Shown: positions 7,374 through 31,596 of the stretch, in pieces
Position numbering within the stretch: the stretch's first letter is position 1
How the letters are laid out: each line of letters begins with the position of its first letter
Source: Nitrosomonas europaea
Lineage (GTDB): Bacteria; Pseudomonadota; Gammaproteobacteria; Burkholderiales; Nitrosomonadaceae
Direction: 5' to 3'
Assembly (NCBI RefSeq): GCF_900167395.1
Contig: NZ_FUWK01000026.1
Coordinates: 10,204 to 42,203 of the forward strand
Length of the DNA: 32,000 nucleotides
Notes under the pieces: model-generated
Told to the model about the DNA's origin: nothing
Database searches by the model: none
What the model saw: the letters and a program-made list of their open reading frames with translations, nothing else
Translations under genes and position numbers: made by a program

Positions 7374-7655
7374 TTGGTAACTCGAACGGATTGATAGACC
7401 ATCATATTGAAAAAACAGACAAATACCATAATACCTGATACTGGAAAAGAAAATCTGATTATTCAAAATGAATATATGTTTCCACTGGATTGGAAAAAAT
7501 AAGCCCTTAATAAGCCCTTGCAGGGCCTGCAACAGTAATTTCGCAACGACAGAAAAATTGAGTGAAATCATACGCAACCAGATAAGGCCGGGTTATGATT
7601 GACACGGACTGTCCGTCGAGTCCGATATCGAAACCAGTTACATCAAGGTGATACC

Positions 7656-9172: not shown

Positions 9173-9970
9173 TCAGAAGTGTGATTTCGTATCGAATTTT
9201 CTGGCCTGTTGTTCGAGCCAGATAATGTAACGTTGTATCAGCGTCCCTGATTTCTCAGACAAATTTACAAATTCACAACCGATGCGCGAGCAGGTGTTGC
9301 CATTGGAAAGAATGGCCATACTGATGCTCACGATCCGGACGGTAGTTTCAATCGTGTCGAATTCCGGTAATTCAATCCGGCAGTGCTCCAGCGTCATACC
9401 AGCTTCCAGCGGCGCATCGGTATCCGGCCGATCGATCAGCGCCATGCCACCGCGGCTGATATCCAGCAGATTGAGCGTAAGAAAAACTTCCTCATGTTGC
9501 CTCAATGGTGGAATGACGCAAGTTGCAGGGTTTGCCACGGGCGTTGCGATCCGATAAAAATTGCGCCGCTGCAGACGTTTCAGCGATGTCGGGAGATCTG
9601 CACTGAATGCATTGCGACCCTCAAACCGGATGTGCTGCAGGTTGTTGCAATCGAATTCGATCCTGATGCGGTTATGGCTGGTGACACAACGCAACATCCC
9701 GCTCTTGAGTGCCATTTGATTGAGTGTTTCATTGATCCCGTAATCCAGTACCAGTAACTTCTTTTGCAAATCGACAGCCAGAATGGATGAGAGAATCGCA
9801 GAGTGGCTGTTGCGGGCGAGATGCAGTGAAATCAGTGATTTTTCCTGCATGATTCCATTGAGGAAAAAACATACTTCAGTCAGAGAATGCACGATGTAGT
9901 CGGATTCATTCGTATCCCGCGATACGGATGAAGGCGCTGCCAATTCTGGATTTTTCCGAAGTATGGCCAT
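9173..9970 (-). CDS. ycgR: PilZ-domain flagellar brake protein YcgR
   Basis: 265 aa. It has an N-terminal YcgR/PilZN-like half and a C-terminal PilZ domain with c-di-GMP motifs RRNFYR (RRxxxR) and DISRGG (DxSxxG). Confidence 0.85.
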   Translation of the reverse strand: MAILRKNPELAAPSSVSRDTNESDYIVHSLTEVCFFLNGIMQEKSLISLHLARNSHSAILSSILAVDLQKKLLVLDYGINETLNQMALKSGMLRCVTSHNRIRIEFDCNNLQHIRFEGRNAFSADLPTSLKRLQRRNFYRIATPVANPATCVIPPLRQHEEVFLTLNLLDISRGGMALIDRPDTDAPLEAGMTLEHCRIELPEFDTIETTVRIVSISMAILSNGNTCSRIGCEFVNLSEKSGTLIQRYIIWLEQQARKFDTKSHF

Positions 9971-18735: not shown

Positions 18736-18793
18736 TGGCATGAGAATTGCTTGATACTTGCCATACAACAACAAATCTTCTTCGAGGACTACC

Positions 18794-19939
18794 ATGCCGA
18801 ATCTGCCCGCCCTTCCAGATATGGGTCTGCCTGTCGTAACCAGCGACCTCACAGCAACCCTTTTACCGGGCGTTGCCAGCCCCATTGTTCCCGGACAGCC
18901 AATCGAACAGGCATTTAGCAGCATCCTGATCAGTATGATGAAAAGCGATCAGGCCATTGAAGACGACACCGAAAATCCGGCACCGGTATCAATCGATGCA
19001 CTCATAGCCGGCATGATAGCTGCGCCGGCCAATCCACCTCAGCTCGTTCCATCTCAGCCCGCACCGGATGCACTGGACACACCGAATGCACCGGACGCAC
19101 CGGCGGAAGAACTGTTATCCATGCTGGCGACAAGCATGATGCCGAATACCGGCCAGCCAGTGACGGATGAGCCTGTTACCTTCCCCGCAGGCGGACTGGC
19201 ATCTGCAACGCCGCCAAATCTGCCATCGGACTCTGGCCGACACGCTGCCGATCCACTCCAGACAACCAGCCAGGCTCACGCTGCTCCTCTCCCTGCTGAA
19301 CTCCCGGCCGGAAATATCAGTACAAGTACCCCGTTTCCCGCTCCTGTGAACAGCTTTAATCAGGCAATCGATGCGGCAAATTTTGCCGATAGCGGCAAAT
19401 CCTTGCCGCCTTCGATGACATCTGTCCCGGTAACACCTGTAGCCGCACATACCAGCAGCACGCCACTGACTGATATTGCTGCTGATACCACGGCGAATGA
19501 TGCGCCGGCTATTGCCGCAGAATTTGGCCAGCCGGACTGGCCGGAAGAATTCGGCCGTAAAATCACCTGGCTGGCGACACAGCGGATGCAAGCGGCAGAA
19601 CTGAAACTGCATCCAGCCCATCTCGGCCCGATAGAAATTTCACTGCAGTTATCCGATGATCAGCGGCTTACGGCACAATTCATTTCACACCACCCCGCAG
19701 TCCGTGAAGCCATCGAAGCCAATCTGCCAAGATTGCGTGAGATCATGGCAGAAAACGGAATTACGCTGGCTGATACCTCAGTCAGTGCAGATACACCCGG
19801 GCAGCAGGCAGAAAACAGACAAGGCAGTCCCTTCCGCCGCCCGGCAGCCGGTGATCACTCCACCTACGATTCCACCAGTCCGCAGACACCAGCCTTACAG
19901 GCAACCAGACGTTCCAGCCTCATCGATACGTTCGCCTGA
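18794..19939 (+). CDS. fliK: flagellar hook-length control protein FliK
   Basis: Pro/Ala-rich N-terminal ruler region. C-terminal Flg_hook domain: AAELKLHPAHLGPIEISLQLSDDQRLTAQFISHHPAVREAIEANLPRLREIMAENGITL. I prefer ATG 18794 after GAGGA; the longest ORF starts at 18758. Confidence 0.85.
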   Translation: MPNLPALPDMGLPVVTSDLTATLLPGVASPIVPGQPIEQAFSSILISMMKSDQAIEDDTENPAPVSIDALIAGMIAAPANPPQLVPSQPAPDALDTPNAPDAPAEELLSMLATSMMPNTGQPVTDEPVTFPAGGLASATPPNLPSDSGRHAADPLQTTSQAHAAPLPAELPAGNISTSTPFPAPVNSFNQAIDAANFADSGKSLPPSMTSVPVTPVAAHTSSTPLTDIAADTTANDAPAIAAEFGQPDWPEEFGRKITWLATQRMQAAELKLHPAHLGPIEISLQLSDDQRLTAQFISHHPAVREAIEANLPRLREIMAENGITLADTSVSADTPGQQAENRQGSPFRRPAAGDHSTYDSTSPQTPALQATRRSSLIDTFA

Positions 19940-20073: not shown

Positions 20074-20101
20074 TAAATGTAACAAGACGCTATGCCGTAA
20101 A
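20074..20101 (+). promoter_or_regulatory. candidate FliA (sigma-28) class-III-type promoter
   Basis: TAAATGTA-N12-GCCGTAAA compared with the consensus TAAAGTTT-N11-GCCGATAA. It lies about 120 nt upstream of the repeat-protein start codon. Confidence 0.45.
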
Positions 20102-20219: not shown

Positions 20220-22241
20220 ATGTCGATTATCAGCAGCCTGACCCCAACCCAAATCTCTGCGTTGACAACGACGCAGATAAAAGATCTCACCACAGGAGAT
20301 ATGAAAGCGCTTTCTGACAAGCAGATCAACGCGATGACATCCACTCAGATCGCGGCCATTGAAACGCAAGATCTGGTCATCCTGAGCGGCAAGCAGATCG
20401 GGGCTTTTAATCCAAACCAATTTACCTACGGTTTGACCACCACACAAATCCAGGCGATTAATAAGGCGCAGGCCACCGGGCTTACCGCTGCCCAACTAAA
20501 AGACATGAATAGCGGCGATCTCTCCAGCCTGAGTGCAGACGCACTGGGCGCATTGTCCGCCAAGCAAATTCAGGGATTGAATTCCACTAACATCGAATCA
20601 CTTACAACAGCTCAGGCAGCCGTACTCAGCTACCAACAAATAGCAGCTATTAGCATAGATGCCGTCAAGGGATTTGAAACCGAGGATCTGGCTCAAATTA
20701 GCACCGCTGCCATCAAAGGTTTGACTGCTGCACAACTCGGTGCCCTGAACAGTGAGCAATTCAGCTCTCTGGATTCCAGCCAGGTGCAAGCCCTTTCCGC
20801 CAAACAAATCCAGGCGCTGGGCACGGATGTAATCAAGAATTTAACAACCAGCGACATGAAGGAGTTCTCTGCCACCCAGGTCGCTGCCCTGAGTAGCGCA
20901 CAACTGAAAGAACTCTCCAGCGGCCAACTTTCAGCCCGAAGTACAGACGCACTGGGTGCATTGTCTGCCAAGCAGATTCAGGGGCTGGATGCAACCAACT
21001 TATCCACCGACACTATCAGTGCACTGACCGCCAAACAAATCGCAGCACTGACCACAACTCAATTGAGTGGAATGAACAGCAGCCAGATCGGAGCTATCTC
21101 AACGAGTGGCATCGCCAGCCTGACCGCCGCACAAATCAAGGGATTGAGCAGTGCAAACGTGGAAGCGCTAACCTCAGATCAGGCTAAAATCCTGTCTGCC
21201 AAACAGCTTGCAGGCCTTGGCACAGATGCCGTCAAGGGATTTGAAACCGCAGATCTGGCTAAAATTGATGCCGCCGCCATCAAAGGTTTGACTGCCGCGC
21301 AACTCGGCGCACTGGGCAGTGCACAATTCAACTCTCTGGATTCCAGCCAGGTGCAAGCCCTTTCTGCCAAACAAATCCAGGCGCTGGGCACGGATGTAAT
21401 CAAGAATTTAACAACCAGCGACATGAAGGAGTTCTCTGCCACCCAGGTCGCAACGCTGACCACAGCTCAGTTAAACGCTATGGATAGCGACCAGATCGGC
21501 GCTATCTCAACGAGTGGCATCGCCAGCCTGACCGCCGCACAAATCAAGGGATTGAGCAGTGCAAACGTGGAAGCGCTAACCTCAGATCAGGCTAAAATCC
21601 TGTCTGCCAAACAGCTTGCAGGCCTTGGCACAGACGCCGTCAAGGGATTTGAAACCGGTGATCTGGCTCAAATTAGCACCGCCGCCATCAAGGGTTTGAC
21701 TGCCGCGCAACTCGGCGCGCTGGGCAGTGCACAATTCAACTCTCTGGATTCCAGCCAGGTGCAAGCCCTTTCTGCCAAACAAATCCAGTCACTGGGCACG
21801 GATGTAATCAAGAATTTAACAACCAGCGACATGAAGGAGTTCTCTGCCACCCAGGTCGCAACGCTGACCACAGCTCAGTTAAACGCTATGGATAGCGACC
21901 AGATCGGCGCTATCTCAACGAGTGGCATCGCCAGCCTGACCGCAGCACAAATCAAGGGATTGAGCAGCGCAAGCGTGGAGGCGCTAACCTCAGATCAGGC
22001 TGCAGCCCTGTCCGCCAAACAGCTTGCAGGCCTTAGCACAGATGCCGTCAAGGGATTTGAAACCGGTGACCTGGCTCAAATTAGCACCGCTGCCATCAAA
22101 GGTCTGACTATAGGTCAAATCAAAGAATTAAGTACTGATCAAGTAACAGCACTGACATCAGATCAGGTACAAGCCCTTTCTGCCAAACAGATTCAGGCCT
22201 TCACCACGGATCAGATTCAACACCTGAATTTTGGCAGCTAA
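20220..22241 (+). CDS. octad-repeat protein (673 aa), uncharacterised; no signal peptide
   Basis: ATG 20220 is preceded by GGAG; the track ORF begins at TTG 20205. Almost the whole protein parses as 8-aa units (LTPTQISA LTTTQIKD LTTGDMKA LSDKQINA ...). It has no Cys and no Trp. A strong terminator follows. Confidence 0.85.
   Translation: MSIISSLTPTQISALTTTQIKDLTTGDMKALSDKQINAMTSTQIAAIETQDLVILSGKQIGAFNPNQFTYGLTTTQIQAINKAQATGLTAAQLKDMNSGDLSSLSADALGALSAKQIQGLNSTNIESLTTAQAAVLSYQQIAAISIDAVKGFETEDLAQISTAAIKGLTAAQLGALNSEQFSSLDSSQVQALSAKQIQALGTDVIKNLTTSDMKEFSATQVAALSSAQLKELSSGQLSARSTDALGALSAKQIQGLDATNLSTDTISALTAKQIAALTTTQLSGMNSSQIGAISTSGIASLTAAQIKGLSSANVEALTSDQAKILSAKQLAGLGTDAVKGFETADLAKIDAAAIKGLTAAQLGALGSAQFNSLDSSQVQALSAKQIQALGTDVIKNLTTSDMKEFSATQVATLTTAQLNAMDSDQIGAISTSGIASLTAAQIKGLSSANVEALTSDQAKILSAKQLAGLGTDAVKGFETGDLAQISTAAIKGLTAAQLGALGSAQFNSLDSSQVQALSAKQIQSLGTDVIKNLTTSDMKEFSATQVATLTTAQLNAMDSDQIGAISTSGIASLTAAQIKGLSSASVEALTSDQAAALSAKQLAGLSTDAVKGFETGDLAQISTAAIKGLTIGQIKELSTDQVTALTSDQVQALSAKQIQAFTTDQIQHLNFGS
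20505..22110 (+). repeat. 408-bp (136-aa, 17-octad) tandem coding super-repeats
   Basis: Units start at 20505 (divergent), 21072, 21480 and 21888 (partial). The 21072 and 21480 units are near-identical at nucleotide level. The 408-nt spacing is also visible in the duplicated antisense ORFs of the track (21174 and 21582). Confidence 0.9.
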
Positions 22242-22280
22242 ACTGTCGATAGCTACTAATTAACAGCAGATATTTACTAA

Positions 22281-22318
22281 CCACGATATTGGAGCTGATC
22301 CGATATCGTGGTTTTTTT
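22281..22318 (+). terminator. rho-independent terminator of the repeat-protein gene
   Basis: CCACGATAT...ATATCGTGG stem followed by TTTTTTT. Confidence 0.85.
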
Positions 22319-22458
22319 ATTGGCAGTACAAGCAGCAATAGAACAGGCGTCCGGAACATCCCGGAAATATATCCATTTCTGTCACCAGATTCAGCGGAGT
22401 CATGTAGCTTTTAGGATGTCAGAAACTAATGTACTATTTCTTACATAGAGAGATATCC

Positions 22459-23055
22459 ATGAACACACTGCCCGAGACCATCCTGCAACAAGCACGATCT
22501 CTCCAAGAGGGAGGTATTCTGTCGCCCAGGGAATTCCTGCACCTGGGAAGCCGGTCGGCGGTAGATCAGGCATTTTCCAGACTGGCCAAGGCCGGTAGAC
22601 TACTGCGCGTGGCGCGTGGCACCTACGCCATCCCGGTTTCCAGCCGGTTCGGCTCACGCGCTCCCGCTCCCGAGAAAGTCATCAGGGCGCTGGCCGAACA
22701 AAGCGGTGAAATCGTCGTACCACATGGCGCCAGCGCGGCCAATGTCCTGGGCCTGACGCAGCAGGTACCCATCCGCGAGGTCTATCTGACCTCCGGACGC
22801 ACCCGAAAGCTGAAGCTCGGCCGCTCGGAAGTGCTCATCAAGCACGCCCCGCGCTGGATGCTGGCGCTGGGTACACGACCAGCCGGCGCGGCCGTGCGCG
22901 CACTGGCCTGGATTGGACCCACACACGCTGGCAAGTCGCTGGCATCGCTGCGCCGTATTCTTCCTCTCCCCGAATGGCAAGCGTTGATCTCAGCGCGAGC
23001 AACGCTGCCCGGCTGGATGGCACAAGCCATCGGCGAGGAAGCCGCGCGTGGCTGA
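22459..23055 (+). CDS. abiEi: AbiEi-family type IV toxin-antitoxin system antitoxin (transcriptional regulator)
   Basis: N-terminal wHTH-like region with GILSPREFLHLGSRSAVDQAFSRLAKAGRLLRVARGTYA, typical of AbiEi_4/DUF6088 antitoxins. It overlaps the downstream AbiEii gene by 8 nt. I prefer the start at ATG 22459; the longest ORF starts at 22429. Confidence 0.8.
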   Translation: MNTLPETILQQARSLQEGGILSPREFLHLGSRSAVDQAFSRLAKAGRLLRVARGTYAIPVSSRFGSRAPAPEKVIRALAEQSGEIVVPHGASAANVLGLTQQVPIREVYLTSGRTRKLKLGRSEVLIKHAPRWMLALGTRPAGAAVRALAWIGPTHAGKSLASLRRILPLPEWQALISARATLPGWMAQAIGEEAARG

Positions 23056-24070
23056 ATATTTCTTTGACCTGAACAAAAGAGATCAACGCGAAGCGCTGGA
23101 ATACGGGCGGGCCGAAACCGGCCGCCCCATTCACCTGCTTGAAAAGGATATATGGGTAGTGTGGGCGCTGCGCGCCCTGTTCGTATCACCGTTGTCGGCC
23201 GACTTGACATTCAAGGGTGGCACATCACTGTCGAAGGTTTACAAGCTCATCGACCGCTTCTCCGAAGATATCGACCTGACCTGCGACATCCGCAAGCTGA
23301 TCCCGGACCTGGTCGGCAAAGGCGACGAACTGCCGGCCAGCCGCAGCCAGGCTGGCAAGTGGACGCAGACCGTGCGGCATCGGCTGCCAGACTGGATCAT
23401 GCAGAACGTGCAGCCAGTGGTTCAAGCGGCCCTGGTCCGCGAGCAACTGAACGCCCGATTGGAACTCGGCGGCTCAGACAACGACAAGCTGTTCCTGCAC
23501 TACCCCGCTCTGGCGCAAGGCACGGGATACGTAGCGCCTGTCGTCACACTGGAGTTCGGCGGCCGCGCCACTGGCGAGCCGCACCAGGTATTCCCGATTA
23601 CTTGCGACATCGCCGCACATCTGGCTGACGTGTCGTTCCCCATCGCGTCACCGCTGGTCATGAGCGTCGCGCGTACCTTTTGGGAGAAGGCCACTGCTGC
23701 ACATGTGTTCTGCGCACAAGGCCGCATTCGCAGCGAACGCTACGCACGGCATTGGCACGACCTGGCCGCGATCGCACGCAGCCCGCATTTCGCAGCCGTA
23801 ATTGCGGATCGTACGGTGGCAATCGCTGTTGCCCGCCACAAGTCATACTTCTTCATCGAGAAAGATGCAGATGGCCAAGCCATCGACTACATAGCCGCGA
23901 CCACAGGGCATCTGAAAATCGTCCCCGAGGGCGAGGCCAAAGCCGCACTCGCCAGGGACTATGCGGCCATGCTGGCCGATGAAGTGATGGTGGGCAATGC
24001 CTTATCCTTCGATGCATTGTTAAAGGCATGTGCCGACCTCGAAGCCAGGGTGAACAGGGCTGCCTTGTAG
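23048..24070 (+). CDS. abiEii: AbiEii/AbiGii-family nucleotidyltransferase toxin
   Basis: FKGGTSLSKVYKLIDRFSEDIDL is the hallmark NTase motif of AbiEii. The GTG start overlaps the antitoxin stop (GTGGCTGA). The segment is GC-rich. Confidence 0.88.
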   Translation: MAEYFFDLNKRDQREALEYGRAETGRPIHLLEKDIWVVWALRALFVSPLSADLTFKGGTSLSKVYKLIDRFSEDIDLTCDIRKLIPDLVGKGDELPASRSQAGKWTQTVRHRLPDWIMQNVQPVVQAALVREQLNARLELGGSDNDKLFLHYPALAQGTGYVAPVVTLEFGGRATGEPHQVFPITCDIAAHLADVSFPIASPLVMSVARTFWEKATAAHVFCAQGRIRSERYARHWHDLAAIARSPHFAAVIADRTVAIAVARHKSYFFIEKDADGQAIDYIAATTGHLKIVPEGEAKAALARDYAAMLADEVMVGNALSFDALLKACADLEARVNRAAL

Positions 24071-24199: not shown

Positions 24200-24311
24200 A
24201 GAAGTGCTCACAAATAACCTGAAATTATCGGGTTAATCAGCACTTTTGCGGGATCACCCAGCTGATAGATTGCAGAGCATAACTGTTACTGCTTTTTATC
24301 AGGAGCCAAAC

Positions 24312-27300
24312 GTGCCAACCCATTCCCTATCTGATTACACCAGCTGGATCGAACGCACCTGGCAGGGCCAGGTTTCCTTTACCGAGCTGGTCACTTACGC
24401 TGAAACGTTAAATTCACATCCCGCGCTGTGCGCTGCACTCTACCGCACCTGGCTGCAGCGTAATACAGGCGTTTTCAACAGCGTTGCCTGGTTCAATCTC
24501 GGCGTTATTCTTTTTGCTGAAAATAACCTGATTGATTCGATTGAAGCTTTCCAGAAGGCACTGGCGCTTAGCCCGGCTTTCCCCCAGGCCCGTATCAATC
24601 TCGGACTGGCGCTTGAACGCCAGGGCAATGCAGAAGCCGCCATTGAACAATGGCAGGCAGTTGTTGAGAACGCCATCACGCCGGAAGCTGATCAAAATAC
24701 CGGGCCAAACCAGGCAGATCAGATAAAAAACCTGACCATGGCGCTCAACAACATCGGGCGCCTGCAGGAAACCCGGCGGCAATATCAGGCAGCCACTCAG
24801 GCGCTGGAAAAAAGCCTGCAGCTTGACCCTGATCAGCCGGATGCCATCCACCACCTGATTTTTCAGCGCCAGAAACAATGCCAGTGGCCGGTTTACGCAC
24901 CAGTGGGCAAGGTCACAGAAGCGGTATTGCATGAACACACCTCGGCGCTTGCCATGCTGAATATCTCGGATGCCCCGGAAGCCCAGCTTACCGCTGCCCT
25001 GAACTACAGCCGCCGCAAGATTCCGGCTGATCTGCCTCGGCTATCCCCTGCCAATGGTTACCGCCACGACAAGATTCGAGTTGCCTATTGCTCCAGCGAT
25101 TTTTGTACTCACCCGGTTGCCATGCTCACGGTTGAACTGTTTGAGCACCACGACAAAAACCGCTTTGAAACCTATGCTTTCTGCTGGTCGCCGGACGATG
25201 GTTCAACCTTGCGCCAGCGTATTCTTTCTGCCGTGGATCATTACATTCCCGTGCACGGCAAAAGTGATGACGAAGTTGCCCAACTCATCCGCCAGCACGA
25301 GATTGATATTCTCATCGATCTGCAAGGCCAGACTAGCGGCGCTAAAACCCGCATGCTGGCCATGCGCCCGGCACCTATGCAAATCACCTATCTGGGCCTG
25401 CCGGCCACTACGGGTTTGCCGGGAATTGATTATGTCATCGCCGACCGCTACCTGATTCCCGAAGAATATGCCCGCTTCTACAGCGAAAAACCGCTCTATA
25501 TGCCGGATGTCTATCAGGTTAGCGACCGCAAGCGCGAACACAGCCCCGCCCCCACCCGCAAGGATTGCGGCCTGCCCGCGCGCAAGTTTGTGTTCTGTTC
25601 CTTCAACAACAACCACAAATACACACTGGAAGTGTTTACCACCTGGATGAACATTCTGCGCCGCGTTCCCAACAGCGTGCTGTGGCTGCTGGCGGACAAC
25701 CCCTGGGCCAGGGAAAACCTGCAAAAACAGGCCAAAGCACAGGGCATTGACCCGAAACGACTGGTATTTGCCGAACGCACCATGCCAGCCGATTATCTGG
25801 CGCGCTATTTGGTTGCTGACCTGTTCCTCGACACTTTCCCCTTCAATGCCGGCACCACCGCTAATGATGCGTTATGGATGGGCCTGCCGGTGCTGACCAT
25901 GAGTGGACGTTCCTTCGCTTCCCGCATGGCAGGTGCACTGCTGACTGCCGCCGATCTACCTGAACTCATCACTCATGATCTGCAAACTTATGAAGATAAA
26001 GCGGTAGCCCTGGCTGCAGATGCCAAAGCGCGCAAAACCATGCGCCAGAAACTGGCGCTGGCCAAAGAAAGCGGCCCGCTGTTCGATTCGCTGCGCTTTA
26101 CCCGTAATCTGGAACAGCAATACATCGCGCTCGTCAGTGAACTGCAAAACCCGTCTCAGCACATCAATATCAGCGCACAACCTGAACCGACAAAATTGGG
26201 AGAGCCGGCACAGCCCAACCCAATCATCGCTACTGTTCAGGAGGCAGAAGCACTGCAAGCCAGGGGAGATACACAAGGCGCTATCCAGCTCTACCGCCAG
26301 TGGCTTGAGCACGCCCATTCAGGAGATGAATGGATAGCCCAGTTCAATCTGGGTGTACTGCTGAGAGACGGGGGAGATATCACAGGTGCACAACAAGCCT
26401 TTCAGGCTGTGTTGAAGCAAAAACCGGATTTCGTACAGGCAAGAGCGGCGTTAGGGAAATTACCGGCGCCGGTGACAACCGAGAGCCAGAAACACGGGGC
26501 AATCATTGGCCCACTACAAACCAACTCTCCAATTAGTACAAAGAGCAAGGAGCAGATAACGCAGATTTTTTCAGAAACGCCTAAGATCAAGTTGCTGGTC
26601 GAGGGGTGGAGAGGAATAAACCATTCGTTTGCCTTGGTAAATCAATACCATCTGTACGAGTGGATGCGATCCAGTCAATTACATATTTATCATCGCGATA
26701 TGCCCTTGCTCTTCTCGCATTGGGAAACGAACAAGAACAGGGGTAATACAGGGCTTCCGGGAACATACAGCCAGCGACTAGCACAAGTTCAGCACTGGAG
26801 TGGTCAGACCTATGATGCATGTTTCCGTATCTATTCACCGGTCACATTGGCGCCGGATGACAAACATCCAGTTTCTACATTCCTCGTAACAGAGCTCGGA
26901 TTGGATGAAACGCAAATTGCTCATTTCAGACCCAATCTCAAGGCCTATTTCAATATGGGAGGAAACATTGTCACTCCATCTCATTGGTCAAAAGAAAGAA
27001 TTATTGAAGCTGGCATACCAGCTGAGCATATCCATCTTATTTCCCACGGTGTAGCCTCAAATATCTTCCATCCAATGCATTCAGATGAACGTGCCATTCA
27101 TCGCCAACGCTTGGGATTTGATCGTGAGGCAGTTATTTTCCTCAATGTAGCTGCTCCGATATGGAACAAGGGACTGGATCTCTTGATTCAGGCTTTTGTC
27201 CAGTGTTTCCATCAGAATCCTCATACCAGGCTGCTCATCAAAGATCAGCAGGCTGTTTATGGTATCAGCACCAAGGATACAGTTTTACGCGAGATAACAC

Positions 27301-27815
27301 TGCTGGGTGAAAGCAAAAATGAATCCTTGCTGAATGCCATCCGAGTTATTCCGGATCTGAATCTGCTCCAACTCAGAGAGTTATATTGTATCGCCGACTA
27401 CTATGTTTCGCCGTACCGTGCCGAAGGTTTCAATCTGCCTGTTATTGAAGCTCTTGTGTGCGGCACGCCAGTCATTGTTACAGAAGGCGGCGCCACACAA
27501 GATTTTTGCAGCGAAAAAAATGCCTTGTTCATTGAGGCTGTGCCTTACAGAAATGTCAAAATCAACGACAGGCACGTTAATGCTTATCAGGCCCCCATTC
27601 TGGACTCACTAATTACTCATCTAAATGTATGCGCACAGGATAAGCCTTTCTCCGAAAGCCAACGTCTGCAGAATGCGGCATCTATTGCCAAGAATTTTAC
27701 CTGGGCAAAAGCGGCTGACACGATTTCCCGATTGTTCACGCAATCAAATGATTGCAATACCAGCACATCTCAAATAACTGGAGCCTTACATGAAGAACCC
27801 CAATACTGTAATTAG
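24312..27815 (+). CDS. fusion glycosyltransferase: TPR - GT41 (O-GlcNAc-transferase/SPINDLY-like) - TPR - GT4 (Glycos_transf_1)
   Basis: GTG 24312 follows AGGAG; the track ORF starts at TTG 24246. TPRs are in the N-terminal ~200 aa. The GT41-like core carries KIRVAYCSSDF, ILIDLQGQT, ITYLGLPATTG, FCSFNNNHK, DTFPFNAGTTANDALWMGLPVLT. A second TPR block lies around aa 690-750. The C-terminal GT4 domain has the E-x7-E region (AEGFNLPVIEALVCGTPVI). Confidence 0.88.
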   Translation: MPTHSLSDYTSWIERTWQGQVSFTELVTYAETLNSHPALCAALYRTWLQRNTGVFNSVAWFNLGVILFAENNLIDSIEAFQKALALSPAFPQARINLGLALERQGNAEAAIEQWQAVVENAITPEADQNTGPNQADQIKNLTMALNNIGRLQETRRQYQAATQALEKSLQLDPDQPDAIHHLIFQRQKQCQWPVYAPVGKVTEAVLHEHTSALAMLNISDAPEAQLTAALNYSRRKIPADLPRLSPANGYRHDKIRVAYCSSDFCTHPVAMLTVELFEHHDKNRFETYAFCWSPDDGSTLRQRILSAVDHYIPVHGKSDDEVAQLIRQHEIDILIDLQGQTSGAKTRMLAMRPAPMQITYLGLPATTGLPGIDYVIADRYLIPEEYARFYSEKPLYMPDVYQVSDRKREHSPAPTRKDCGLPARKFVFCSFNNNHKYTLEVFTTWMNILRRVPNSVLWLLADNPWARENLQKQAKAQGIDPKRLVFAERTMPADYLARYLVADLFLDTFPFNAGTTANDALWMGLPVLTMSGRSFASRMAGALLTAADLPELITHDLQTYEDKAVALAADAKARKTMRQKLALAKESGPLFDSLRFTRNLEQQYIALVSELQNPSQHINISAQPEPTKLGEPAQPNPIIATVQEAEALQARGDTQGAIQLYRQWLEHAHSGDEWIAQFNLGVLLRDGGDITGAQQAFQAVLKQKPDFVQARAALGKLPAPVTTESQKHGAIIGPLQTNSPISTKSKEQITQIFSETPKIKLLVEGWRGINHSFALVNQYHLYEWMRSSQLHIYHRDMPLLFSHWETNKNRGNTGLPGTYSQRLAQVQHWSGQTYDACFRIYSPVTLAPDDKHPVSTFLVTELGLDETQIAHFRPNLKAYFNMGGNIVTPSHWSKERIIEAGIPAEHIHLISHGVASNIFHPMHSDERAIHRQRLGFDREAVIFLNVAAPIWNKGLDLLIQAFVQCFHQNPHTRLLIKDQQAVYGISTKDTVLREITLLGESKNESLLNAIRVIPDLNLLQLRELYCIADYYVSPYRAEGFNLPVIEALVCGTPVIVTEGGATQDFCSEKNALFIEAVPYRNVKINDRHVNAYQAPILDSLITHLNVCAQDKPFSESQRLQNAASIAKNFTWAKAADTISRLFTQSNDCNTSTSQITGALHEEPQYCN

Positions 27816-28539
27816 CTCTGACTACGGTCCAATCATTATTAACCTGAACGACAATGCAATTGGACGGCAAATCAGCCAATATGGATACTGGGCAACAGAT
27901 GACATCAATATCATCAATACCTTAGTTAATGTTCAGTTAGATAAATTTGGCCAAATCATGTTCTACGATGTAGGTGCGAATATCGGCACGCATTCACTAG
28001 CAATTGCCAAAACTCATCCCGATACAGTTGCTATTCGGGCATTCGAAGCACAGCGGCAAGTATTCAATATGCTGTGCGGCACTATGGCAATCAACGGGCT
28101 TTCGAATGTCCATTGCCACCATAATGCCATTAGTGAAAAAATCGGAGATTTTATTGACATCCCCATACCAGACTATAACAGCGCCAACAACTTTGGAAGC
28201 TTAGAGCTAATCCCACCAAAAAACTCCGACAACCAAGGCATCATCCATAGCGGAAAAATGGAAAGTGTCAAAACATTATCAATTGATTCATTCAATGAAA
28301 AAGTTGATTTTATCAAAATGGATATTGAAGGGATGGAAGACAAGGCGCTCTTGGGAGCAATCAACACAATCGAACATCATCGGCCAATTCTCTTCCTCGA
28401 AATCCTGAAAACAGATGTTAATTTTGTTATGACCTTTCTGAGGGAAAGAGGTTATCTCGGATTTCAGAAATCATTTGATCTGATCGCCATACCGATTGAA
28501 TATCAACTACAAGTCAATGGCACAAATCGGGTTTTCTGA
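27790..28539 (+). CDS. FkbM-family SAM-dependent methyltransferase
   Basis: FYDVGANIGTHSLAIAK (SAM-binding G-loop) and DFIKMDIEGME are typical of FkbM. It overlaps the end of the glycosyltransferase gene by 26 nt. The segment is very AT-rich. Confidence 0.87.
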   Translation: MKNPNTVISSDYGPIIINLNDNAIGRQISQYGYWATDDINIINTLVNVQLDKFGQIMFYDVGANIGTHSLAIAKTHPDTVAIRAFEAQRQVFNMLCGTMAINGLSNVHCHHNAISEKIGDFIDIPIPDYNSANNFGSLELIPPKNSDNQGIIHSGKMESVKTLSIDSFNEKVDFIKMDIEGMEDKALLGAINTIEHHRPILFLEILKTDVNFVMTFLRERGYLGFQKSFDLIAIPIEYQLQVNGTNRVF

Positions 28540-28839
28540 AAATTATTTGTATCTGTTGCCACAGGCCATACTGAAAGTAAGAAATATAATTACAAAGTGG
28601 ATTAATCAGTTGCAATGACGGGAAATTTATTCTCATTTGTGCCACAACCACCAGCATTTTTATGAGACCACAGACTGTAGAGCCAACAGTAACCCACTAA
28701 ATACAACCCCTTTTCAAAGCTTAAATGGCAGCACTTACACCTTATTCTCCCTCGTATCTGTTTGATGATCGAGAGCTTGCATCCGAGTTGAATGACAAGC
28801 GCAGTTTTAAGCATCTAAACGATAAAAAGGGAGAAGGCT

Positions 28840-29853
28840 TTGTTTGACGTTAATTACGAAAAACAAGCTCAGGACTATTACAGCAAGGCCCCCATCATAA
28901 TTTTAGGTAGTGGTGCCTCGGCTACGCATGGAATGCCTGGCATGCGGGGGCTTGCGCAACATCTGACCGACAAAACCGATGTTTCAGGACTGTCTGATGC
29001 TGAGATGGAGCCTTGGAGGAGCTTTTGCCGGACACTCACAGATGGTGTGGATTTGGAATCGGCACTCCGCCAGGTAGCCGTATCTGAAGAGCTGACTTGC
29101 AGGATCATAAATTCCACTTGGTCACTTATCAACTCTGAAGATGCTGCAATCTTCAAGAATAGCTTGCAAAACAGCTCGATGTTCCCGCTGAGCCGTCTGC
29201 TTGAACACATGTTCAAAACAAGCCTAAAAAAAATAAATATTGTCACTACAAATTATGATCGCTTGGCAGAGTATGCATGCGACCAAAGCAGAATTCATCA
29301 CTACACTGGATTTACTCACGGATTTTTCCGCCAACTGGCCACGCCCGATGAATTAACCTGCTCACGCAGAGTGAATATTTGGAAAGTACATGGATCTCTC
29401 GACTGGTTTCAGTCGCCACTAGAAGACACCATCGCAATTTCAGGCGCACAAGAAATTCCTGAAAATTACAGCCCACAGATTGTGACACCTGGCACGCAAA
29501 AGTACCAAAAGACGCACCTTGAGCCATTTCGCTCCATCATAAATAACGCCGACATAGCTATTAATGAGGCGGGTTCATACTTGTGCATCGGGTATGGATT
29601 CAATGATGAGCATGTTCAGCCAAAACTTATGGCTAAATGCCAGCGACAGGGGGCGCCAGTCACCATTATCACATACGCACTTTCCGATTCGACTAAAAAA
29701 CTTATTCTTGGCGGCAAAGCACAAAATTATTTAGCGATAGAGCGTGGGGCGACAGATGGCCAGTCTGTTGTCTACTCTTCTCTGAGCAGTTCTTCGTTCA
29801 CAGTAGAGAAGAACATCTGGAGCCTTGAAGGCTACTTATCACTCATCATGTAG
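28840..29853 (+). CDS. SIR2-family (SIR2_2) NADase-type defence protein, partner of HerA
   Basis: IIILGSGAS (Rossmann G-loop), VTTNYDRL and WKVHGSLDWF (catalytic Asn/Asp and His contexts of SIR2_2). The apparent start is TTG, preceded by AAAGGGAGAAGG. The stop lies 9 nt before herA. Confidence 0.82.
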   Translation: MFDVNYEKQAQDYYSKAPIIILGSGASATHGMPGMRGLAQHLTDKTDVSGLSDAEMEPWRSFCRTLTDGVDLESALRQVAVSEELTCRIINSTWSLINSEDAAIFKNSLQNSSMFPLSRLLEHMFKTSLKKINIVTTNYDRLAEYACDQSRIHHYTGFTHGFFRQLATPDELTCSRRVNIWKVHGSLDWFQSPLEDTIAISGAQEIPENYSPQIVTPGTQKYQKTHLEPFRSIINNADIAINEAGSYLCIGYGFNDEHVQPKLMAKCQRQGAPVTIITYALSDSTKKLILGGKAQNYLAIERGATDGQSVVYSSLSSSSFTVEKNIWSLEGYLSLIM

Positions 29854-29862
29854 AGAGGGCAT

Positions 29863-31596
29863 ATGCCAATATTCAACTTTAGGGATGAAGAAGCGCTCGG
29901 GAAGGTTGCTTCCGTTGATACCACGAATGTAATTGTGGATGTGGAGAATGTCGCTCATCTAAAAAGGTTACAGGTTAATCATCTCGCCGTGCTTCAGAGC
30001 AGCAGGCCTGGGCAGCACCTCATTGGCCTTATTACGCAGGTGACTAGAAAGCGAGGCATCGAAAATATTTCCGATGATGGAATCGTCGACCAAAATTCAG
30101 AATTGAATCTGTGTCGCATTGCCTTAATTGGAACCATGCTAGATCGCGATGGCTCCAAGGAGAATGTTTTTCGTCGAACAATCGAAAGTGTTCCCGAAAT
30201 AGATGCCAACTGCTTTTCGCTCGAAGGCGAGAACCTCACTGGATTTATGCGCACGCTCTCCAGCGTTTCAGCGGAAGGAAATGCCTTGACGCTAGGGAAG
30301 TACACGTTGGATGAGAATGCAGTAGCCTACCTTAATGGTAATAAATTTTTCCAGCGCCATGCCTTTATCGGAGGAAGTACAGGTTCTGGAAAGTCTTGGA
30401 CAACTGCCAAAATTATTGAGCAAATGTCAGGGCTTTCTACAGCGAATGCCATTGTCTTTGACCTTCATGGCGAATACTCTCCATTGACAGGGCCAGGCAT
30501 TCAGCACTTCAAGGTTGCAGGGCCGGCAGATGTTGAAGCCAAACGCACCATCTCTGATGATGTGCTTTATCTTCCTTATTGGCTGCTTTCTTATGAGGCG
30601 CTAGTTTCCATGTTTGTGGATCGTAGCGATCAGAATGCCCCTAACCAAGCTATGATAATAGCTCGCGAGATCAATCAAGCGAAAAGAAAGTACCTTGAGG
30701 ACAATGGGCAGCAGGCGTTACTAAAGCACTTTACTGTTGATAGCCCAGTTCCATTCGATCTCGATTTCCTTATGGAGCGATTGAATTCGATTAACGTCGA
30801 GATGGTTCCCGGCGCTAAAGCTGGAACCGAAAAGCAAGGCGATTTCTTCGGAAAGCTCGCGCGCATGATTTCCAGGCTTGAGAACAAAATTTCCGATAGG
30901 CGTCTCGGATTTATGTTCAACGGTGGCGGAGACATTCTTGACTTCGCTTGGCTTGAGAAGTTTGCCAATGCTGCTCTCGGAAGCACGGGCGAGAACGGCA
31001 AGGCAGGTATCAAGATCATCAACTTCTCTGAGGTTCCCTCGGACGTTCTTCCCCTGATAGTCTCCCTTGTTGCACGAGTCACATTTTCGGTGCAGCAGTG
31101 GACTCCATCAGAGCTTCGCCATCCCATTGCGCTTCTCTGTGATGAAGCTCACCTCTATATGCCCCAGCGCAACATGGCAGATTCCGCAGACGATATTTCA
31201 TTGGATATATTCGAGCGCATCGCGAAAGAAGGACGAAAATATGGCGTCAGCTTGGTTGTAATCAGTCAGCGTCCATCCGAAGTAAACAAAACGCTGCTTA
31301 GCCAGTGCAGCAATTTTGTATCTATGCGTCTGACTAATGCCGAAGATCAAGGCGTTATCAAACGCCTTCTCCCCGACAGCCTTGGCGGCTTCAGTGACAT
31401 CCTTCCCACACTCGATACTGGTGAGGCTTTGGTTGTCGGCGATGCCAGCTTATTGCCAAGTCGCATCAGAATCGACGAGCCACAGAACAAGCCGAATAGC
31501 GGAACTGTGAACTTCTGGGATGAATGGCAGAAGCCAGTCAAAGACAATCGGCTATTGATTGCCGTCGATAACTGGCGCAAGCAAAACATCCAATAG
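29863..31596 (+). CDS. herA: HerA-like (DUF87/FtsK-HerA superfamily) ATPase of a SIR2-HerA defence pair
   Basis: N-terminal HAS-barrel-like region (GKVASVDTTNVIVDV). Walker A GGSTGSGKS. Walker B LLCDEAHLYMP. The C-terminal signature is GVSLVVISQRPSEV...FVSMRLTN...GEALVVGDA. Confidence 0.9.
   Translation: MPIFNFRDEEALGKVASVDTTNVIVDVENVAHLKRLQVNHLAVLQSSRPGQHLIGLITQVTRKRGIENISDDGIVDQNSELNLCRIALIGTMLDRDGSKENVFRRTIESVPEIDANCFSLEGENLTGFMRTLSSVSAEGNALTLGKYTLDENAVAYLNGNKFFQRHAFIGGSTGSGKSWTTAKIIEQMSGLSTANAIVFDLHGEYSPLTGPGIQHFKVAGPADVEAKRTISDDVLYLPYWLLSYEALVSMFVDRSDQNAPNQAMIIAREINQAKRKYLEDNGQQALLKHFTVDSPVPFDLDFLMERLNSINVEMVPGAKAGTEKQGDFFGKLARMISRLENKISDRRLGFMFNGGGDILDFAWLEKFANAALGSTGENGKAGIKIINFSEVPSDVLPLIVSLVARVTFSVQQWTPSELRHPIALLCDEAHLYMPQRNMADSADDISLDIFERIAKEGRKYGVSLVVISQRPSEVNKTLLSQCSNFVSMRLTNAEDQGVIKRLLPDSLGGFSDILPTLDTGEALVVGDASLLPSRIRIDEPQNKPNSGTVNFWDEWQKPVKDNRLLIAVDNWRKQNIQ

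What the first reader, a model, noticed from the sequence alone, without database searches (positions are those of the whole stretch)
24312..27815. Single 1167-aa ORF fusing an OGT-like GT41 enzyme to a GT4 glycosyltransferase, with a composition break inside the ORF
Two complete glycosyltransferase catalytic modules, each preceded by a TPR block, sit in one reading frame. The first is GT41-like (about 25.1-26.1 kb) and the second GT4-like (about 26.6-27.7 kb).

They are joined by a low-complexity linker, LPAPVTTESQKHGAIIGPLQTNSPISTKSKEQ. The downstream module begins KIKLLVEGWRGINHSFALVNQ, which reads like the N-terminus of a stand-alone enzyme.

Base composition falls visibly at about 26.45-26.6 kb. 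Counting sample 60-nt lines gives 32/60 G+C at 25381-25440 and 23/60 at 26941-27000. This suggests a fusion of segments with different histories.

GT41 enzymes glycosylate Ser/Thr of proteins and use their TPRs to bind the substrate. A second GT in cis would allow the glycan to be elongated by the same polypeptide.
Basis: partly seen in the sequence, partly recalled or inferred. Interest (0 to 1): 0.65.

Follow-up and report, generated by a model that had tools for sequence, protein, structure and literature searches.

The report
Mosaic two-module protein glycosyltransferase gene
This is a real, intact gene of Nitrosomonas europaea that joins an OGT-like protein glycosyltransferase to a second sugar-adding enzyme. 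Its second half is a swappable cassette that differs between strains, and the enzyme most likely decorates a strange threonine-rich repeat protein encoded just upstream.

Summary

- **ORF.** 24312-27815 is one uninterrupted 1167-aa ORF: TPR block, GT41 catalytic domain, 2-TPR block, disordered linker, complete GT4 domain. Catalytic motifs are intact in both modules.
- **Composition break.** It is real: GC 0.553 falls to 0.450, with the change-point at 26501. It coincides with the end of homology to other N. europaea strains at 26450-26456.
- **Alleles.** Other strains carry different low-GC cassettes after the same 2-TPR joint: methyltransferase+GT2 (fused or separate), an unknown 294-aa domain, or nothing.
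- **Mosaicism.** The N-terminal TPR block is also mosaic between strains.
- **Not unique.** 37 of 354 fetched relatives carry GT41 plus this GT4 subfamily, 36 in the same order.
- **Context.** 62 of 80 related genome loci encode an ALTTAQ octad-repeat protein near the GT41 gene, 41 immediately upstream. Here it lies at 20220-22241, separated by an inserted AbiE pair.
- **Best reading.** Cytoplasmic O-glycosylation of that repeat protein and/or flagellin, with GT41 priming, GT4 extending and the overlapping FkbM gene methylating.
- **Rating.** New variant of a known kind; moderately interesting.

The parts
24312..27815 (+). Whole 1167-aa ORF: TPR1, GT41, TPR2, linker, GT4.
24321..24875 (+). TPR1 block (aa 4-188), the presumed acceptor-binding domain.
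   Evidence: - Pfam TPR hits and AF2 helices.
- Asn of the NLG-type motifs conserved: N62 and N146 invariant, N96 in at least 90%.
- The region 24312-25060, which contains this block, is only 46-73% identical to the L005 allele.
24879..26147 (+). GT41 (OGT-like) GT-B catalytic domain, aa 190-612, without the metazoan intervening domain.
   Evidence: - PF13844 E=1.8e-79.
- hOGT E=7e-89 and XcOGT E=5e-84.
- Foldseek XcOGT target-normalised TM 0.88-0.90.
- H267, K436, T515/T516 and D519 align with hOGT H498, K842, T921/T922 and D925.
26220..26456 (+). TPR2, a two-repeat block (aa 637-715). It is the conserved joint after which alleles diverge.
   Evidence: - Alignment A3: all alleles diverge directly after ...KPDFVQARAAL.
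- Homology to L001 and L002 ends at 26450-26456.
26457..26585 (+). Low-complexity disordered linker (aa 716-758). The low-GC cassette starts here.
   Evidence: - pLDDT below 50 at aa 720-742 and 748-755.
- GC change-point at 26501.
- No SD-preceded in-frame start here.
26586..27740 (+). Complete GT4-type GT-B module, aa 759-1143.
   Evidence: - PF00534 and PF13692 above cut-off.
- E1038-x7-E1046 and the WNK953G motif conserved.
- PDB hits to PimB', WaaG and Alr3699.
- AF2 shows two Rossmann lobes.
- Stand-alone homologues at 41-46% identity.
27790..28539 (+). FkbM-family methyltransferase gene. It overlaps the ORF end by 26 nt and is the likely glycan O-methylase.
   Evidence: - PF05050 and TIGR01444.
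- GGAG SD before the ATG.
- GT41+GT4+FkbM occur in one protein in P0063.
- FkbM genes lie next to relatives.
20220..22241 (+). ALTTAQ-repeat protein, 673 aa. It consists of 75 repeat units, 66 of them exactly eight residues, L-[TS]-[TSA]-x-Q-[ILV]-x-[AG]. It is the candidate acceptor substrate.
   Evidence: - PF20080, 18 stretches; octad analysis.
- An ALTTAQ ORF lies within 10 kb of 62 of 80 GT41 loci and immediately upstream in 41.
- It is adjacent to three of four GT41-GT4 fusion loci examined beyond the 80-locus scan.

Best explanation
The ORF encodes a cytoplasmic, bifunctional protein-glycosylation enzyme that sits at the border of a strain-variable glycan island.

**Shown**
- It is an intact mosaic gene with a conserved GT41 core.
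- It is flanked by a diversifying N-terminal TPR block and, after a conserved two-TPR joint (TPR2), an exchangeable low-GC cassette.
- In this strain the cassette is a disordered linker plus a full GT4 enzyme, followed by an overlapping FkbM methyltransferase gene.
- Other N. europaea-type alleles carry different cassettes at the same joint: methyltransferase+GT2 (fused, or as a separate gene with its own TPR2), an unknown 294-aa domain, or nothing.

**Inferred mechanism**
1. TPR1 holds an extended acceptor polypeptide, OGT-style.
2. GT41 puts the first sugar on Ser/Thr.
3. The tethered GT4 adds a second sugar to the primed sites.
4. FkbM O-methylates the glycan.

**Likely acceptor**
- The most likely acceptor is the 23% Ser/Thr ALTTAQ octad-repeat protein encoded upstream. 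It would be modified before export.
- Flagellin is a second possible acceptor, or an alternative one.

**Cassette exchange**
- Recombination at TPR2 changes the glycan between strains. This is comparable to O-antigen loci or flagellin glycosylation islands.
For: **Intact modules and motifs**
-.

**Mosaicism and breakpoint**
- Homology and identity profiles.
- GC change-point.
- Alternative cassettes in other strains are also low-GC, 0.41-0.49 against 0.54 for the GT41 part.

**Allelic forms**
-.
- The TPR2 of L002 is chimeric between the two TPR2 copies of L001. This fits a fusion by recombination between them.

**Rosetta-stone links**
- 37 proteins carry GT41 plus this GT4 subfamily, 36 in the order GT41->GT4.
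- P0063 joins GT41, GT4 and FkbM.
- Other fusions join GT41 to GT2, GT9, methyltransferase, sulfotransferase or radical-SAM domains.

**Acceptor**
- An ALTTAQ ORF lies immediately upstream on the same strand in 41 of 80 GT41 loci, and within 10 kb in 62 of 80.
- Shuffled-query controls reach at most 32 bits, against 100-486 bits for the real hits.
- ALTTAQ proteins lie adjacent to fusion-type GT41-GT4 genes in L006, L088, L091 and L092.
- A stand-alone GT4 of the same subfamily sits in an operon with an ALTTAQ giant.
- In L005 the divergent segment covers both the ALTTAQ 3' end and TPR1.

**Cytoplasmic location**
- Neither protein has a long hydrophobic stretch: longest runs are 7 and 5 residues.
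Against: - There are no biochemical data. Neither donor sugars nor the acceptor can be read from sequence.
- The co-divergence of TPR1 and ALTTAQ rests on one strain pair and could be mere linkage.
- 18 of 80 GT41 loci show no ALTTAQ gene, though several of these have short flanks.
- The gene lies in a flagellar cluster, and 13 of 80 related loci carry flagellar genes. Flagellin is therefore not excluded.
- The 727-742-aa alleles end right after TPR2. TPR2 therefore need not be an adaptor for a second enzyme.
- The ALTTAQ structure comes from a single-sequence AF2 model.
Confidence: 0.55

Rival explanations
1. It is a classical flagellin glycosyltransferase. TPR1 binds flagellin, as in Caulobacter FlmG. 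GT41 and GT4 build a flagellin O-glycan, and the ALTTAQ protein is unrelated or only co-regulated.
For: - The gene lies downstream of fliF-G-H-I-J-K.
- The Burkholderiaceae GT41-GT4-methyltransferase relative sits beside two fliC genes, fliD, fliS and fliT.
- 13 of 80 related loci have flagellar genes within 10 kb. This is far above the roughly 2% I estimate for random placement.
- The FlmG TPR domain binds flagellins (PMC7591256).
- A stand-alone GT4 relative lies next to fliE.
Against: - There is no flagellin gene in the 32-kb window.
- ALTTAQ adjacency is much more frequent (41-62 of 80 loci) than flagellar adjacency (13 of 80), and it also occurs in non-flagellar, T1SS-linked loci.
- Membership of characterised flagellin glycosyltransferases (FlmG, FlmQ) in this family could not be tested.
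Confidence: 0.25
2. The fusion is an artefact or a decaying gene. Two genes were joined by a sequencing or assembly error, or by loss of a stop codon, and one half is inactive.
For: - There is a sharp composition break and a low-complexity linker exactly at the junction.
Against: - The identical 1167-aa ORF occurs on 14 contigs, and 1167-aa forms occur in further independent assemblies.
- The 69%-identical protein P0003 keeps the same architecture.
- 36 other GT41->GT4 fusions exist.
- Catalytic motifs are conserved in both halves.
- There is no usable internal start for a separate GT4.
Confidence: 0.02
3. The enzyme works on a polysaccharide or lipid-linked glycan (LPS, EPS or capsule) rather than on a protein. 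TPRs would serve only for complex assembly.
For: - GT4 enzymes are mostly polysaccharide or glycolipid transferases. NCBIfam weak hits are to MshA, EPS, WaaG-like and LTA-anchor enzymes.
- Variable low-GC cassettes resemble O-antigen loci.
Against: - All characterised GT41 members known to me are protein glycosyltransferases. This rests on my knowledge of CAZy GT41, not on a test here.
- The active-site and TPR Asn features match OGT and XcOGT.
- No Wzx/Wzy, ABC-type polysaccharide exporter, undecaprenyl-phosphate-transferase or other polysaccharide-synthesis or export family was found among the ORFs scanned in this window.
- The conserved partner is a Ser/Thr-rich repeat protein.
Confidence: 0.1
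4. The low-GC block (GT4 half, FkbM, SIR2, HerA) is one anti-phage defence island, and the GT4 and FkbM parts belong to the defence function.
For: - The block is co-inherited: 97% identical overall to L005 across 24741-31024, and 99-100% within the ORF from 26262 on.
- SIR2 and HerA match PADLOC models strongly.
- There is a weak, sub-threshold PF20706 'GT4-conflict' hit: 25.0 bits against a cut-off of 26.
Against: - PADLOC finds nothing for the GT4 half or for FkbM.
- The same GT4 subfamily is fused to GT41, or linked to ALTTAQ genes, in many taxa without SIR2-HerA.
- FkbM is fused to GT41-GT4 in P0063.
Confidence: 0.05

Closest known systems
XcOGT (Xanthomonas campestris XCC0866) and human OGT, CAZy GT41
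   Same: - N-terminal TPR superhelix fused to a GT-B catalytic domain.
- 32-33% identity and target-normalised TM 0.88-0.90 to XcOGT.
- E=7e-89 to hOGT.
- Equivalents of H498, K842, T921/T922 and D925 are conserved.
- It lacks the metazoan intervening domain, like XcOGT.
   Different: - It carries a second TPR pair, a disordered linker and a complete GT4 enzyme at the C-terminus.
- It is mosaic between strains.
- Donor and acceptor are unknown.
Caulobacter FlmG flagellin O-glycosyltransferase (PMC7591256)
   Same: - Soluble enzyme with a TPR N-terminal domain that binds the acceptor and a GT-B C-terminal domain that transfers the sugar.
- Encoded with flagellar genes.
- Acts in the cytoplasm before export.
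   Different: - FlmG has one catalytic module and transfers pseudaminic acid to flagellin.
- Homology to the present protein was not tested.
- No flagellin gene lies next to the present gene.
Serine-rich-repeat adhesin glycosylation in Gram-positives (GtfA/GtfB priming, then Gtf3 and the two-domain dGT1). This entry rests on my own knowledge.
   Same: - A Ser/Thr-rich repeat protein is encoded next to dedicated cytoplasmic glycosyltransferases that prime and then elongate an O-glycan before dedicated export.
- The set of elongating enzymes varies between strains.
- Bifunctional two-GT polypeptides occur.
   Different: - The priming enzyme there is GT4 (GtfA), not GT41.
- The substrate repeats are SxSx-type and disordered, not octad mini-helices.
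- Export there uses SecA2/Y2.
- No sequence relationship was tested.
HMW1C/ApNGT with the HMW1 adhesin (GT41 N-glycosyltransferases; PMC3012730)
   Same: - A bacterial GT41 enzyme encoded next to the large secreted protein it glycosylates in the cytoplasm.
- It can add mono- or di-hexoses.
   Different: - Those enzymes lack canonical TPRs and modify Asn in NX(S/T) sequons.
- Here NCBIfam NGTferase scores 26.9 bits against a cut-off of 1000.
- The ALTTAQ protein has only 6 sequons but 156 Ser/Thr.
Synechococcus elongatus Ogt, required for pilin glycosylation (bioRxiv 10.1101/2021.07.06.449578)
   Same: A bacterial OGT homologue needed for glycosylation of a surface-appendage protein.
   Different: - It is a single-module enzyme.
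- Its acceptor is a pilin, not a repeat protein.
- No fused elongating enzyme is present.
Other alleles of the same N. europaea-type locus (CP157069 and metagenome contigs L002-L004)
   Same: - 92-97% DNA identity from fliF through TPR2.
- Same position after the ALTTAQ gene and the AbiE pair.
   Different: After TPR2 they carry other cassettes instead of GT4/FkbM/SIR2/HerA:
- NeC followed by a separate TPR2-methyltransferase-GT2 gene; or
- a direct methyltransferase-GT2 fusion followed by DegT and an acetyltransferase.

Membership tests
CAZy GT41 / OGT-like protein glycosyltransferases | Match to the family profile above the curated threshold. | tested here: met
   PF13844 scores 267.9 bits against a cut-off of 25, in two stretches that flank the position of the OGT intervening domain.
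CAZy GT41 / OGT-like protein glycosyltransferases | TPR superhelix joined to a GT-B fold, as in solved OGTs. | tested here: met
   AF2 model with pLDDT 85.6. Foldseek to XcOGT 2jlb/2vsy/2xgs gives target-normalised TM 0.88-0.90 and rmsd 2.5-3.4 A.
CAZy GT41 / OGT-like protein glycosyltransferases | UDP-sugar binding and catalytic residues: hOGT H498, K842, T921/T922, D925. | tested here: met
   - H267, K436, T515/T516 and D519 align to these residues.
- H267, K436 and D519 are invariant in both family alignments. T516 is invariant in A1 and at least 90% in A2. T515 is at least 90% conserved in A1 only.
- The equivalents of hOGT Q839, H901 and H920 differ (N433, Y, G514).
CAZy GT41 / OGT-like protein glycosyltransferases | Transfers a sugar to Ser/Thr of a protein. 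| not testable with these tools
   This needs biochemistry or glycoproteomics.
CAZy GT4 (retaining GT-B, 'glycosyl transferases group 1') | C-terminal Rossmann domain profile above threshold. | tested here: met
   PF00534 scores 56.2 bits (cut-off 26.4) and PF13692 scores 58.7 bits (cut-off 27).
CAZy GT4 (retaining GT-B, 'glycosyl transferases group 1') | E-x7-E motif and phosphate-binding Lys. | tested here: met
   E1038-GFNLPVI-E1046 and K953 in WNKG are at least 90% conserved in 32 fusion proteins.
CAZy GT4 (retaining GT-B, 'glycosyl transferases group 1') | Complete N-terminal Rossmann (acceptor) domain. | tested here: inconclusive
   - PF13439 scores only 19.1 bits against a cut-off of 28.5.
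- The AF2 model shows a beta/alpha domain at 759-910, mostly at pLDDT 82-92 with one dip to about 65 near residues 801-810.
- Full-length alignment to stand-alone GT4 enzymes starts at their residues 1-16.
HMW1C-like N-glycosyltransferases (GT41 NGT) | Match to the NGT equivalog model. | tested here: not met
   NF049992 scores 26.9 bits against a cut-off of 1000, over the C-terminal 90 residues only.
Flagellin glycosyltransferases of flagellin glycosylation islands (FlmG, FlmQ, Maf, Fgt) | Encoded next to flagellin genes. | tested here: not met
   - No flagellin gene lies in the 32-kb window. The gene follows fliF-K, the ALTTAQ gene and AbiE.
- Some relatives are next to fliC.
Flagellin glycosyltransferases of flagellin glycosylation islands (FlmG, FlmQ, Maf, Fgt) | Sequence homology to a characterised flagellin glycosyltransferase. 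| not tested
- The FlmQ paper is not held.
- A search from a Paraburkholderia homologue gave no B. cenocepacia hit among the best 120.
SIR2-HerA anti-phage system | Component matches a defence-system model. | tested here: not met
   PADLOC gives no hit for either GT half or for FkbM. The neighbouring SIR2 (E=1e-141) and HerA (E=5e-244) do match.

The most novel reading that the evidence does not exclude
ALTTAQ octad-repeat proteins range from 673 aa here to more than 6000 aa elsewhere. They are predicted solenoids of about 80 five-residue helices and have no solved counterpart.

They may be the dedicated acceptors of a widespread, undescribed GT41-based cytoplasmic O-glycosylation system in Gram-negative bacteria. 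The system would be linked to flagellar or type I secretion loci.

Its glycan would be diversified between strains by recombination at a TPR joint, which swaps or fuses elongating and modifying enzymes. The present GT41-GT4 fusion is one such allele. The system would be a Gram-negative counterpart of serine-rich-repeat adhesin glycosylation.
Probability: 0.4. Interest if true: 0.7.

Novelty: new variant of a known kind. Interest (0 to 1): 0.55.

Why it matters
- **Substrates of bacterial OGT homologues are mostly unknown.** As far as I know, XcOGT, the best-studied bacterial OGT homologue, still has no known acceptor. A conserved gene pair, repeat protein then TPR-GT41, found in most of 80 genomes gives a concrete and testable acceptor candidate.
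- **The allele series is a natural experiment in modular glycosyltransferase engineering.** Within one species, the same priming enzyme is joined at one joint to GT4, to methyltransferase-GT2, to an unknown domain, or to nothing.
- **It could explain strain-level surface or flagellar variation in a model nitrifier.** This bears on recognition by phages and grazers.
- **The acceptor candidate may be a new fold class.** This rests on a single-sequence structure prediction only.

Tried and rejected
**Literature**
- 'ALTTAQ' gave 0 papers. 'PF20080' gave only unrelated papers.
- 'GT41' with 'GT4' gave only metagenome CAZyme surveys. OGT, flagellar and Nitrosomonas terms gave nothing on this family.
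- So I found no published description in the held library.

**FlmQ link**
- I tried to connect the family to B. cenocepacia FlmQ (BCAL0111). The JBC and J Bacteriol papers are not held.
- The third protein search, from a Paraburkholderia homologue, returned no B. cenocepacia protein among the best 120. The question is unresolved, and this was an expensive call with little return.

**Biased search**
- The C-terminal-half search listed almost only stand-alone GT4 enzymes and omitted P0001, which is 99.7% identical. The candidate stage seems to drop much longer proteins.
- I therefore re-derived the fused versus stand-alone picture with local BLAST.

**Promoter scans**
- The sigma-54 consensus scan was no better than chance: 48 matches against 42 expected.
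- The strict sigma-28 pattern scan was also at chance.
- A sigma-28-like site found by eye upstream of the ALTTAQ gene is present only in the two N. europaea loci, out of 27 ALTTAQ genes with complete starts.

**Fold search for the ALTTAQ model**
- Foldseek returned only generic alpha-solenoids: TM at most about 0.2 by query length and at most 0.36 by target length.

**Rejected readings**
- Assembly artefact, part of a defence island, and NGT-type N-glycosyltransferase. See the rival explanations and membership tests.

Full report
**1.

The frame is open from 24246 to 27815. The GTG at 24312 has an AGGAG Shine-Dalgarno sequence upstream and gives the 1167-aa product.

The Pfam results are:

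| Family | Score | Cut-off or position |
|---|---|---|
| Glyco_transf_41 | 267.9 bits, E=1.8e-79 | cut-off 25 |
| Glycos_transf_1 | 56.2 bits | cut-off 26.4 |
| Glyco_trans_1_4 | 58.7 bits | cut-off 27 |
| TPR families | various | aa about 42-183 and 644-730 |

An AlphaFold2 model built on 32 homologues has mean pLDDT 85.6. It resolves these parts:

| Part | Residues |
|---|---|
| TPR1 | 4-188 |
| GT41 GT-B domain | 190-612 |
| Disordered spacer | 615-635 |
| TPR2 (two repeats) | 637-715 |
| GT4 GT-B domain | 759-1143 |

1167-aa forms also occur in Nitrosomonas sp. H1_AOB3 and in JGI and Logan contigs.

No SD-preceded in-frame start codon precedes the GT4 domain. The GT4 module can therefore only be made as part of the fusion.

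**2. Both modules look catalytically competent**

*GT41 half*
- It matches human OGT (E=7e-89) and XcOGT (E=5e-84) by sequence.
- It matches XcOGT by fold, with target-normalised TM 0.88-0.90 at 32-33% identity.
- H267, K436, T515/T516 and D519 align with hOGT H498, K842, T921/T922 and D925.
- H267, K436 and D519 are invariant in both family alignments. T516 is invariant in A1 and at least 90% in A2. T515 is at least 90% conserved in A1 only.
- The Asn of the TPR 'NLG' motifs is conserved: N62 and N146 invariant, N96 in at least 90% of sequences. These sit where OGT has its substrate-binding asparagine ladder. That comparison rests on my own knowledge.

*GT4 half*
- It has E1038-x7-E1046 and the WNK953G motif, conserved in at least 90% of 32 fusion proteins.
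- It hits PimB', WaaG and Alr3699 in the PDB.
- It aligns end to end with stand-alone GT4 enzymes of about 385 aa, starting at their residues 1-16.

*Location*
- Neither this protein nor the ALTTAQ protein has a hydrophobic run longer than 7 residues. This fits cytoplasmic enzymes and substrate.

**3. The composition break is a recombination boundary**

- GC falls from 0.553 to 0.450, with a maximum-likelihood change-point at 26501. The likelihood ratio is 34.6, against at most 18.2 in 200 codon shuffles.
- GC3 falls from 0.606 to 0.459.
- Against another N. europaea genome (CP157069, locus L001), DNA identity is 95-97% from fliF to about 26134 and 92.7% at 26275-26452. It is nil from 26456 to the window end.
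- Identity to a third allele (L002-L004) ends at the same place, 26450.
- The protein alignment of five alleles shows them identical in register through '...KPDFVQARAAL' and unrelated afterwards.

What follows TPR2 differs by strain:

| Allele | After TPR2 |
|---|---|
| This window and L005 | Linker-GT4, FkbM, SIR2, HerA |
| CP157069 (L001) | Unknown 294-aa domain ('NeC'), then a separate gene for TPR2'-methyltransferase-GT2, then DegT aminotransferase and a hexapeptide acetyltransferase |
| L002-L004 | Methyltransferase-GT2 fused directly (1299 aa) |
| 727-742-aa forms in the same 90% cluster | Nothing |

- The TPR2 of L002 is chimeric. Its upstream part matches the GT41-linked copy, and its core and downstream part match the copy that heads the separate methyltransferase-GT2 gene of L001.
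- That pattern is what recombination between two direct TPR2 copies would produce. TPR2 therefore appears to act as the joint that toggles fused and unfused states.
- The alternative cassettes are also low-GC, 0.41-0.49. The GC drop is thus a property of the variable island, not of this allele alone.

A second mosaic boundary lies inside the gene. Against L005, which shares the GT4 cassette, identity varies along the ORF:

| Window interval | DNA identity to L005 |
|---|---|
| 26262-27815 | 99-100% |
| 25062-26260 | 89-98% |
| 24312-25060 (TPR1 and the start of the GT41 domain) | 46-73% |

- In L005 the ALTTAQ gene fragment directly upstream is likewise divergent.
- At least three segments of the ORF therefore have different histories.

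**4. The fusion architecture is common**

- Their linkers are 3-71 aa. Only the three Nitrosomonas proteins have the 125-148-aa insert, which is TPR2 plus the linker (alignment).
- A Burkholderiaceae MAG protein is 75% identical in GT41 and 60% identical in GT4, joined directly and followed by a methyltransferase domain.
- Other relatives fuse GT41 to GT2, GT9, methyltransferases, sulfotransferase, radical SAM or FkbM. P0063 joins GT41, GT4 and FkbM.
- Here the FkbM gene overlaps the ORF end by 26 nt and has its own SD.
- Together these are Rosetta-stone arguments that GT41, GT4 and FkbM act in one pathway.

**5. What it probably acts on**

*The conserved neighbour*
- The window is a flagellar region: fleS/R, fliF-G-H-I-J-K.
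- fliK is followed by a 673-aa ALTTAQ-repeat protein (PF20080, 18 stretches). Next comes an AbiEi/AbiEii pair of GC 0.60-0.63, and then the ORF.
- In other Nitrosomonas loci the AbiE pair is absent, and the ALTTAQ gene ends 58-91 bp before the GT41 gene.

*Scan of related genomes*
- I scanned one genome per species and kept the 80 best GT41 loci.
- A tblastn search found an ALTTAQ-type ORF within 10 kb in 62 of them. It is immediately upstream on the same strand, within 1.2 kb and mostly within 200 bp, in 41.
- Twenty shuffled queries reached at most 32 bits, against 100-486 bits for 60 loci.
- The pair occurs in Beta- and Gammaproteobacteria, Geobacteraceae, Acidobacteriota and others.
- The repeat proteins reach 4563 aa in HdN1 and 6078 aa in L088.

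*Further links*
- Three of four GT41-GT4 fusion loci examined beyond this scan have an adjacent ALTTAQ gene. The fourth has type I secretion genes. The Burkholderiaceae fusion locus (L006) also has one.
- A stand-alone GT4 of the same subfamily sits in an operon with an ALTTAQ giant and a T1SS ABC/MFP pair.

*The protein itself*
- It consists of 75 repeat units, 66 of them exactly eight residues, L-[TS]-[TSA]-x-Q-[ILV]-x-[AG]. It is 23% Ser/Thr and has only 6 N-x-S/T sequons.
- A conserved, Ser/Thr-rich neighbour of an OGT-like enzyme is the obvious acceptor candidate. This is inference.

*Flagellin remains possible*
- 13 of 80 loci carry flagellar genes.
- The Burkholderiaceae relative lies beside two fliC genes.
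- FlmG gives a mechanistic precedent for TPR-mediated flagellin recognition (PMC7591256).

**6. Comparison with what is known**

- By membership, the N-terminal two-thirds is a GT41/OGT-like enzyme and the C-terminal third a GT4 enzyme.
- It is not an HMW1C-type NGT.
- It is not part of the neighbouring SIR2-HerA defence pair.
- By mode of action, the nearest analogues are:
  - FlmG-type flagellin glycosylation;
  - the GtfA/B-plus-elongating-GT systems of Gram-positive serine-rich-repeat adhesins (my own knowledge);
  - HMW1C/HMW1 (PMC3012730).
- I found no paper on ALTTAQ proteins or on GT41-GT4 fusions in the held library.

**7. Verdict**

- The gene is an annotated but uncharacterised member of a widespread fusion class, so the fusion alone is only mildly novel.
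- Two things raise the interest. One is the allele series at the TPR2 joint within a single species. The other is the strong, apparently undescribed linkage to ALTTAQ-repeat proteins.
- Function and acceptor remain inferred.

Noticed in passing
window 20220-22241 (+): The ALTTAQ protein is an almost perfect 8-residue repeat. A single-sequence AF2 model (pLDDT 84.9) predicts about 80 five-residue helices with period 8. Foldseek finds no close solved counterpart, only generic alpha-solenoids (TM at most about 0.2 by query length). It may be a new solenoid type.
   Followed up: partly
window 21083-22109: There is a 408-nt tandem repeat (17 octads), 2.5 copies at 95% identity, inside the ALTTAQ gene. 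The orthologue in strain CP157069 is 699 aa, so copy number probably varies.
   Followed up: no
window 20074-20101 and 22279-22313: - A sigma-28-like motif, TAAA-N16-GCCGTAAA, lies about 120 nt upstream of the ALTTAQ start. Only 7 such motifs occur in 2.9 Mb of fetched DNA, and it is present only in the two N. europaea loci.
- A strong terminator-like hairpin (15-bp stem plus a T-run) lies right after the ALTTAQ stop.
- Together they suggest a separate, flagellin-like late transcription unit.
   Followed up: partly
window 22429-24070 (+): An AbiEi/AbiEii toxin-antitoxin/abortive-infection pair with GC 0.60-0.63 is inserted between the ALTTAQ gene and the GT41 gene. It is present in the N. europaea-type loci L001-L004 and absent in L005, L007, L009 and L023.
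   Followed up: partly
window 28840-31596 (+): A SIR2 (E=1e-141) plus HerA (E=5e-244) anti-phage pair lies in the same low-GC block as the GT4 half and FkbM. The block is co-inherited with them in L005.
   Followed up: partly
L001 12146-13030, also near or in the GT41 genes of L019, L027, L038, L061, L085: 'NeC' is a 294-aa C-terminal domain with no Pfam, NCBIfam or other annotation. It recurs fused to or next to GT41 genes in several genera and may be an undescribed glycan-modifying module.
   Followed up: partly
L088 13096-13842, L089 11083-11922, L092 5033-7681: DUF5672 proteins recur directly downstream of GT41-GT4 or GT4 genes in ALTTAQ loci. They are another candidate pathway component of unknown function.
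   Followed up: no
L089 4302-7822, L090 6378-9902, and the P0122 contig: Type I secretion genes (ABC transporter, HlyD/AprE-type adaptor, TolC-like OEP) sit beside ALTTAQ, GT4 or GT41-GT4 genes in some taxa. This hints that large ALTTAQ proteins are T1SS cargo there.
   Followed up: no
window 7599-8684 (+), 9173-9970 (-): A second FliK-like (Flg_hook domain) gene and a YcgR-type PilZ brake lie upstream of the fleS/fleR pair, in addition to the canonical fliK at 18758-19939.
   Followed up: no
(tool behaviour): The search with the 454-aa C-terminal half did not return P0001-P0003 or P0010, which are 60-99.7% identical in that region. Much longer proteins seem to be dropped, so that list over-represents stand-alone enzymes.
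   Followed up: yes
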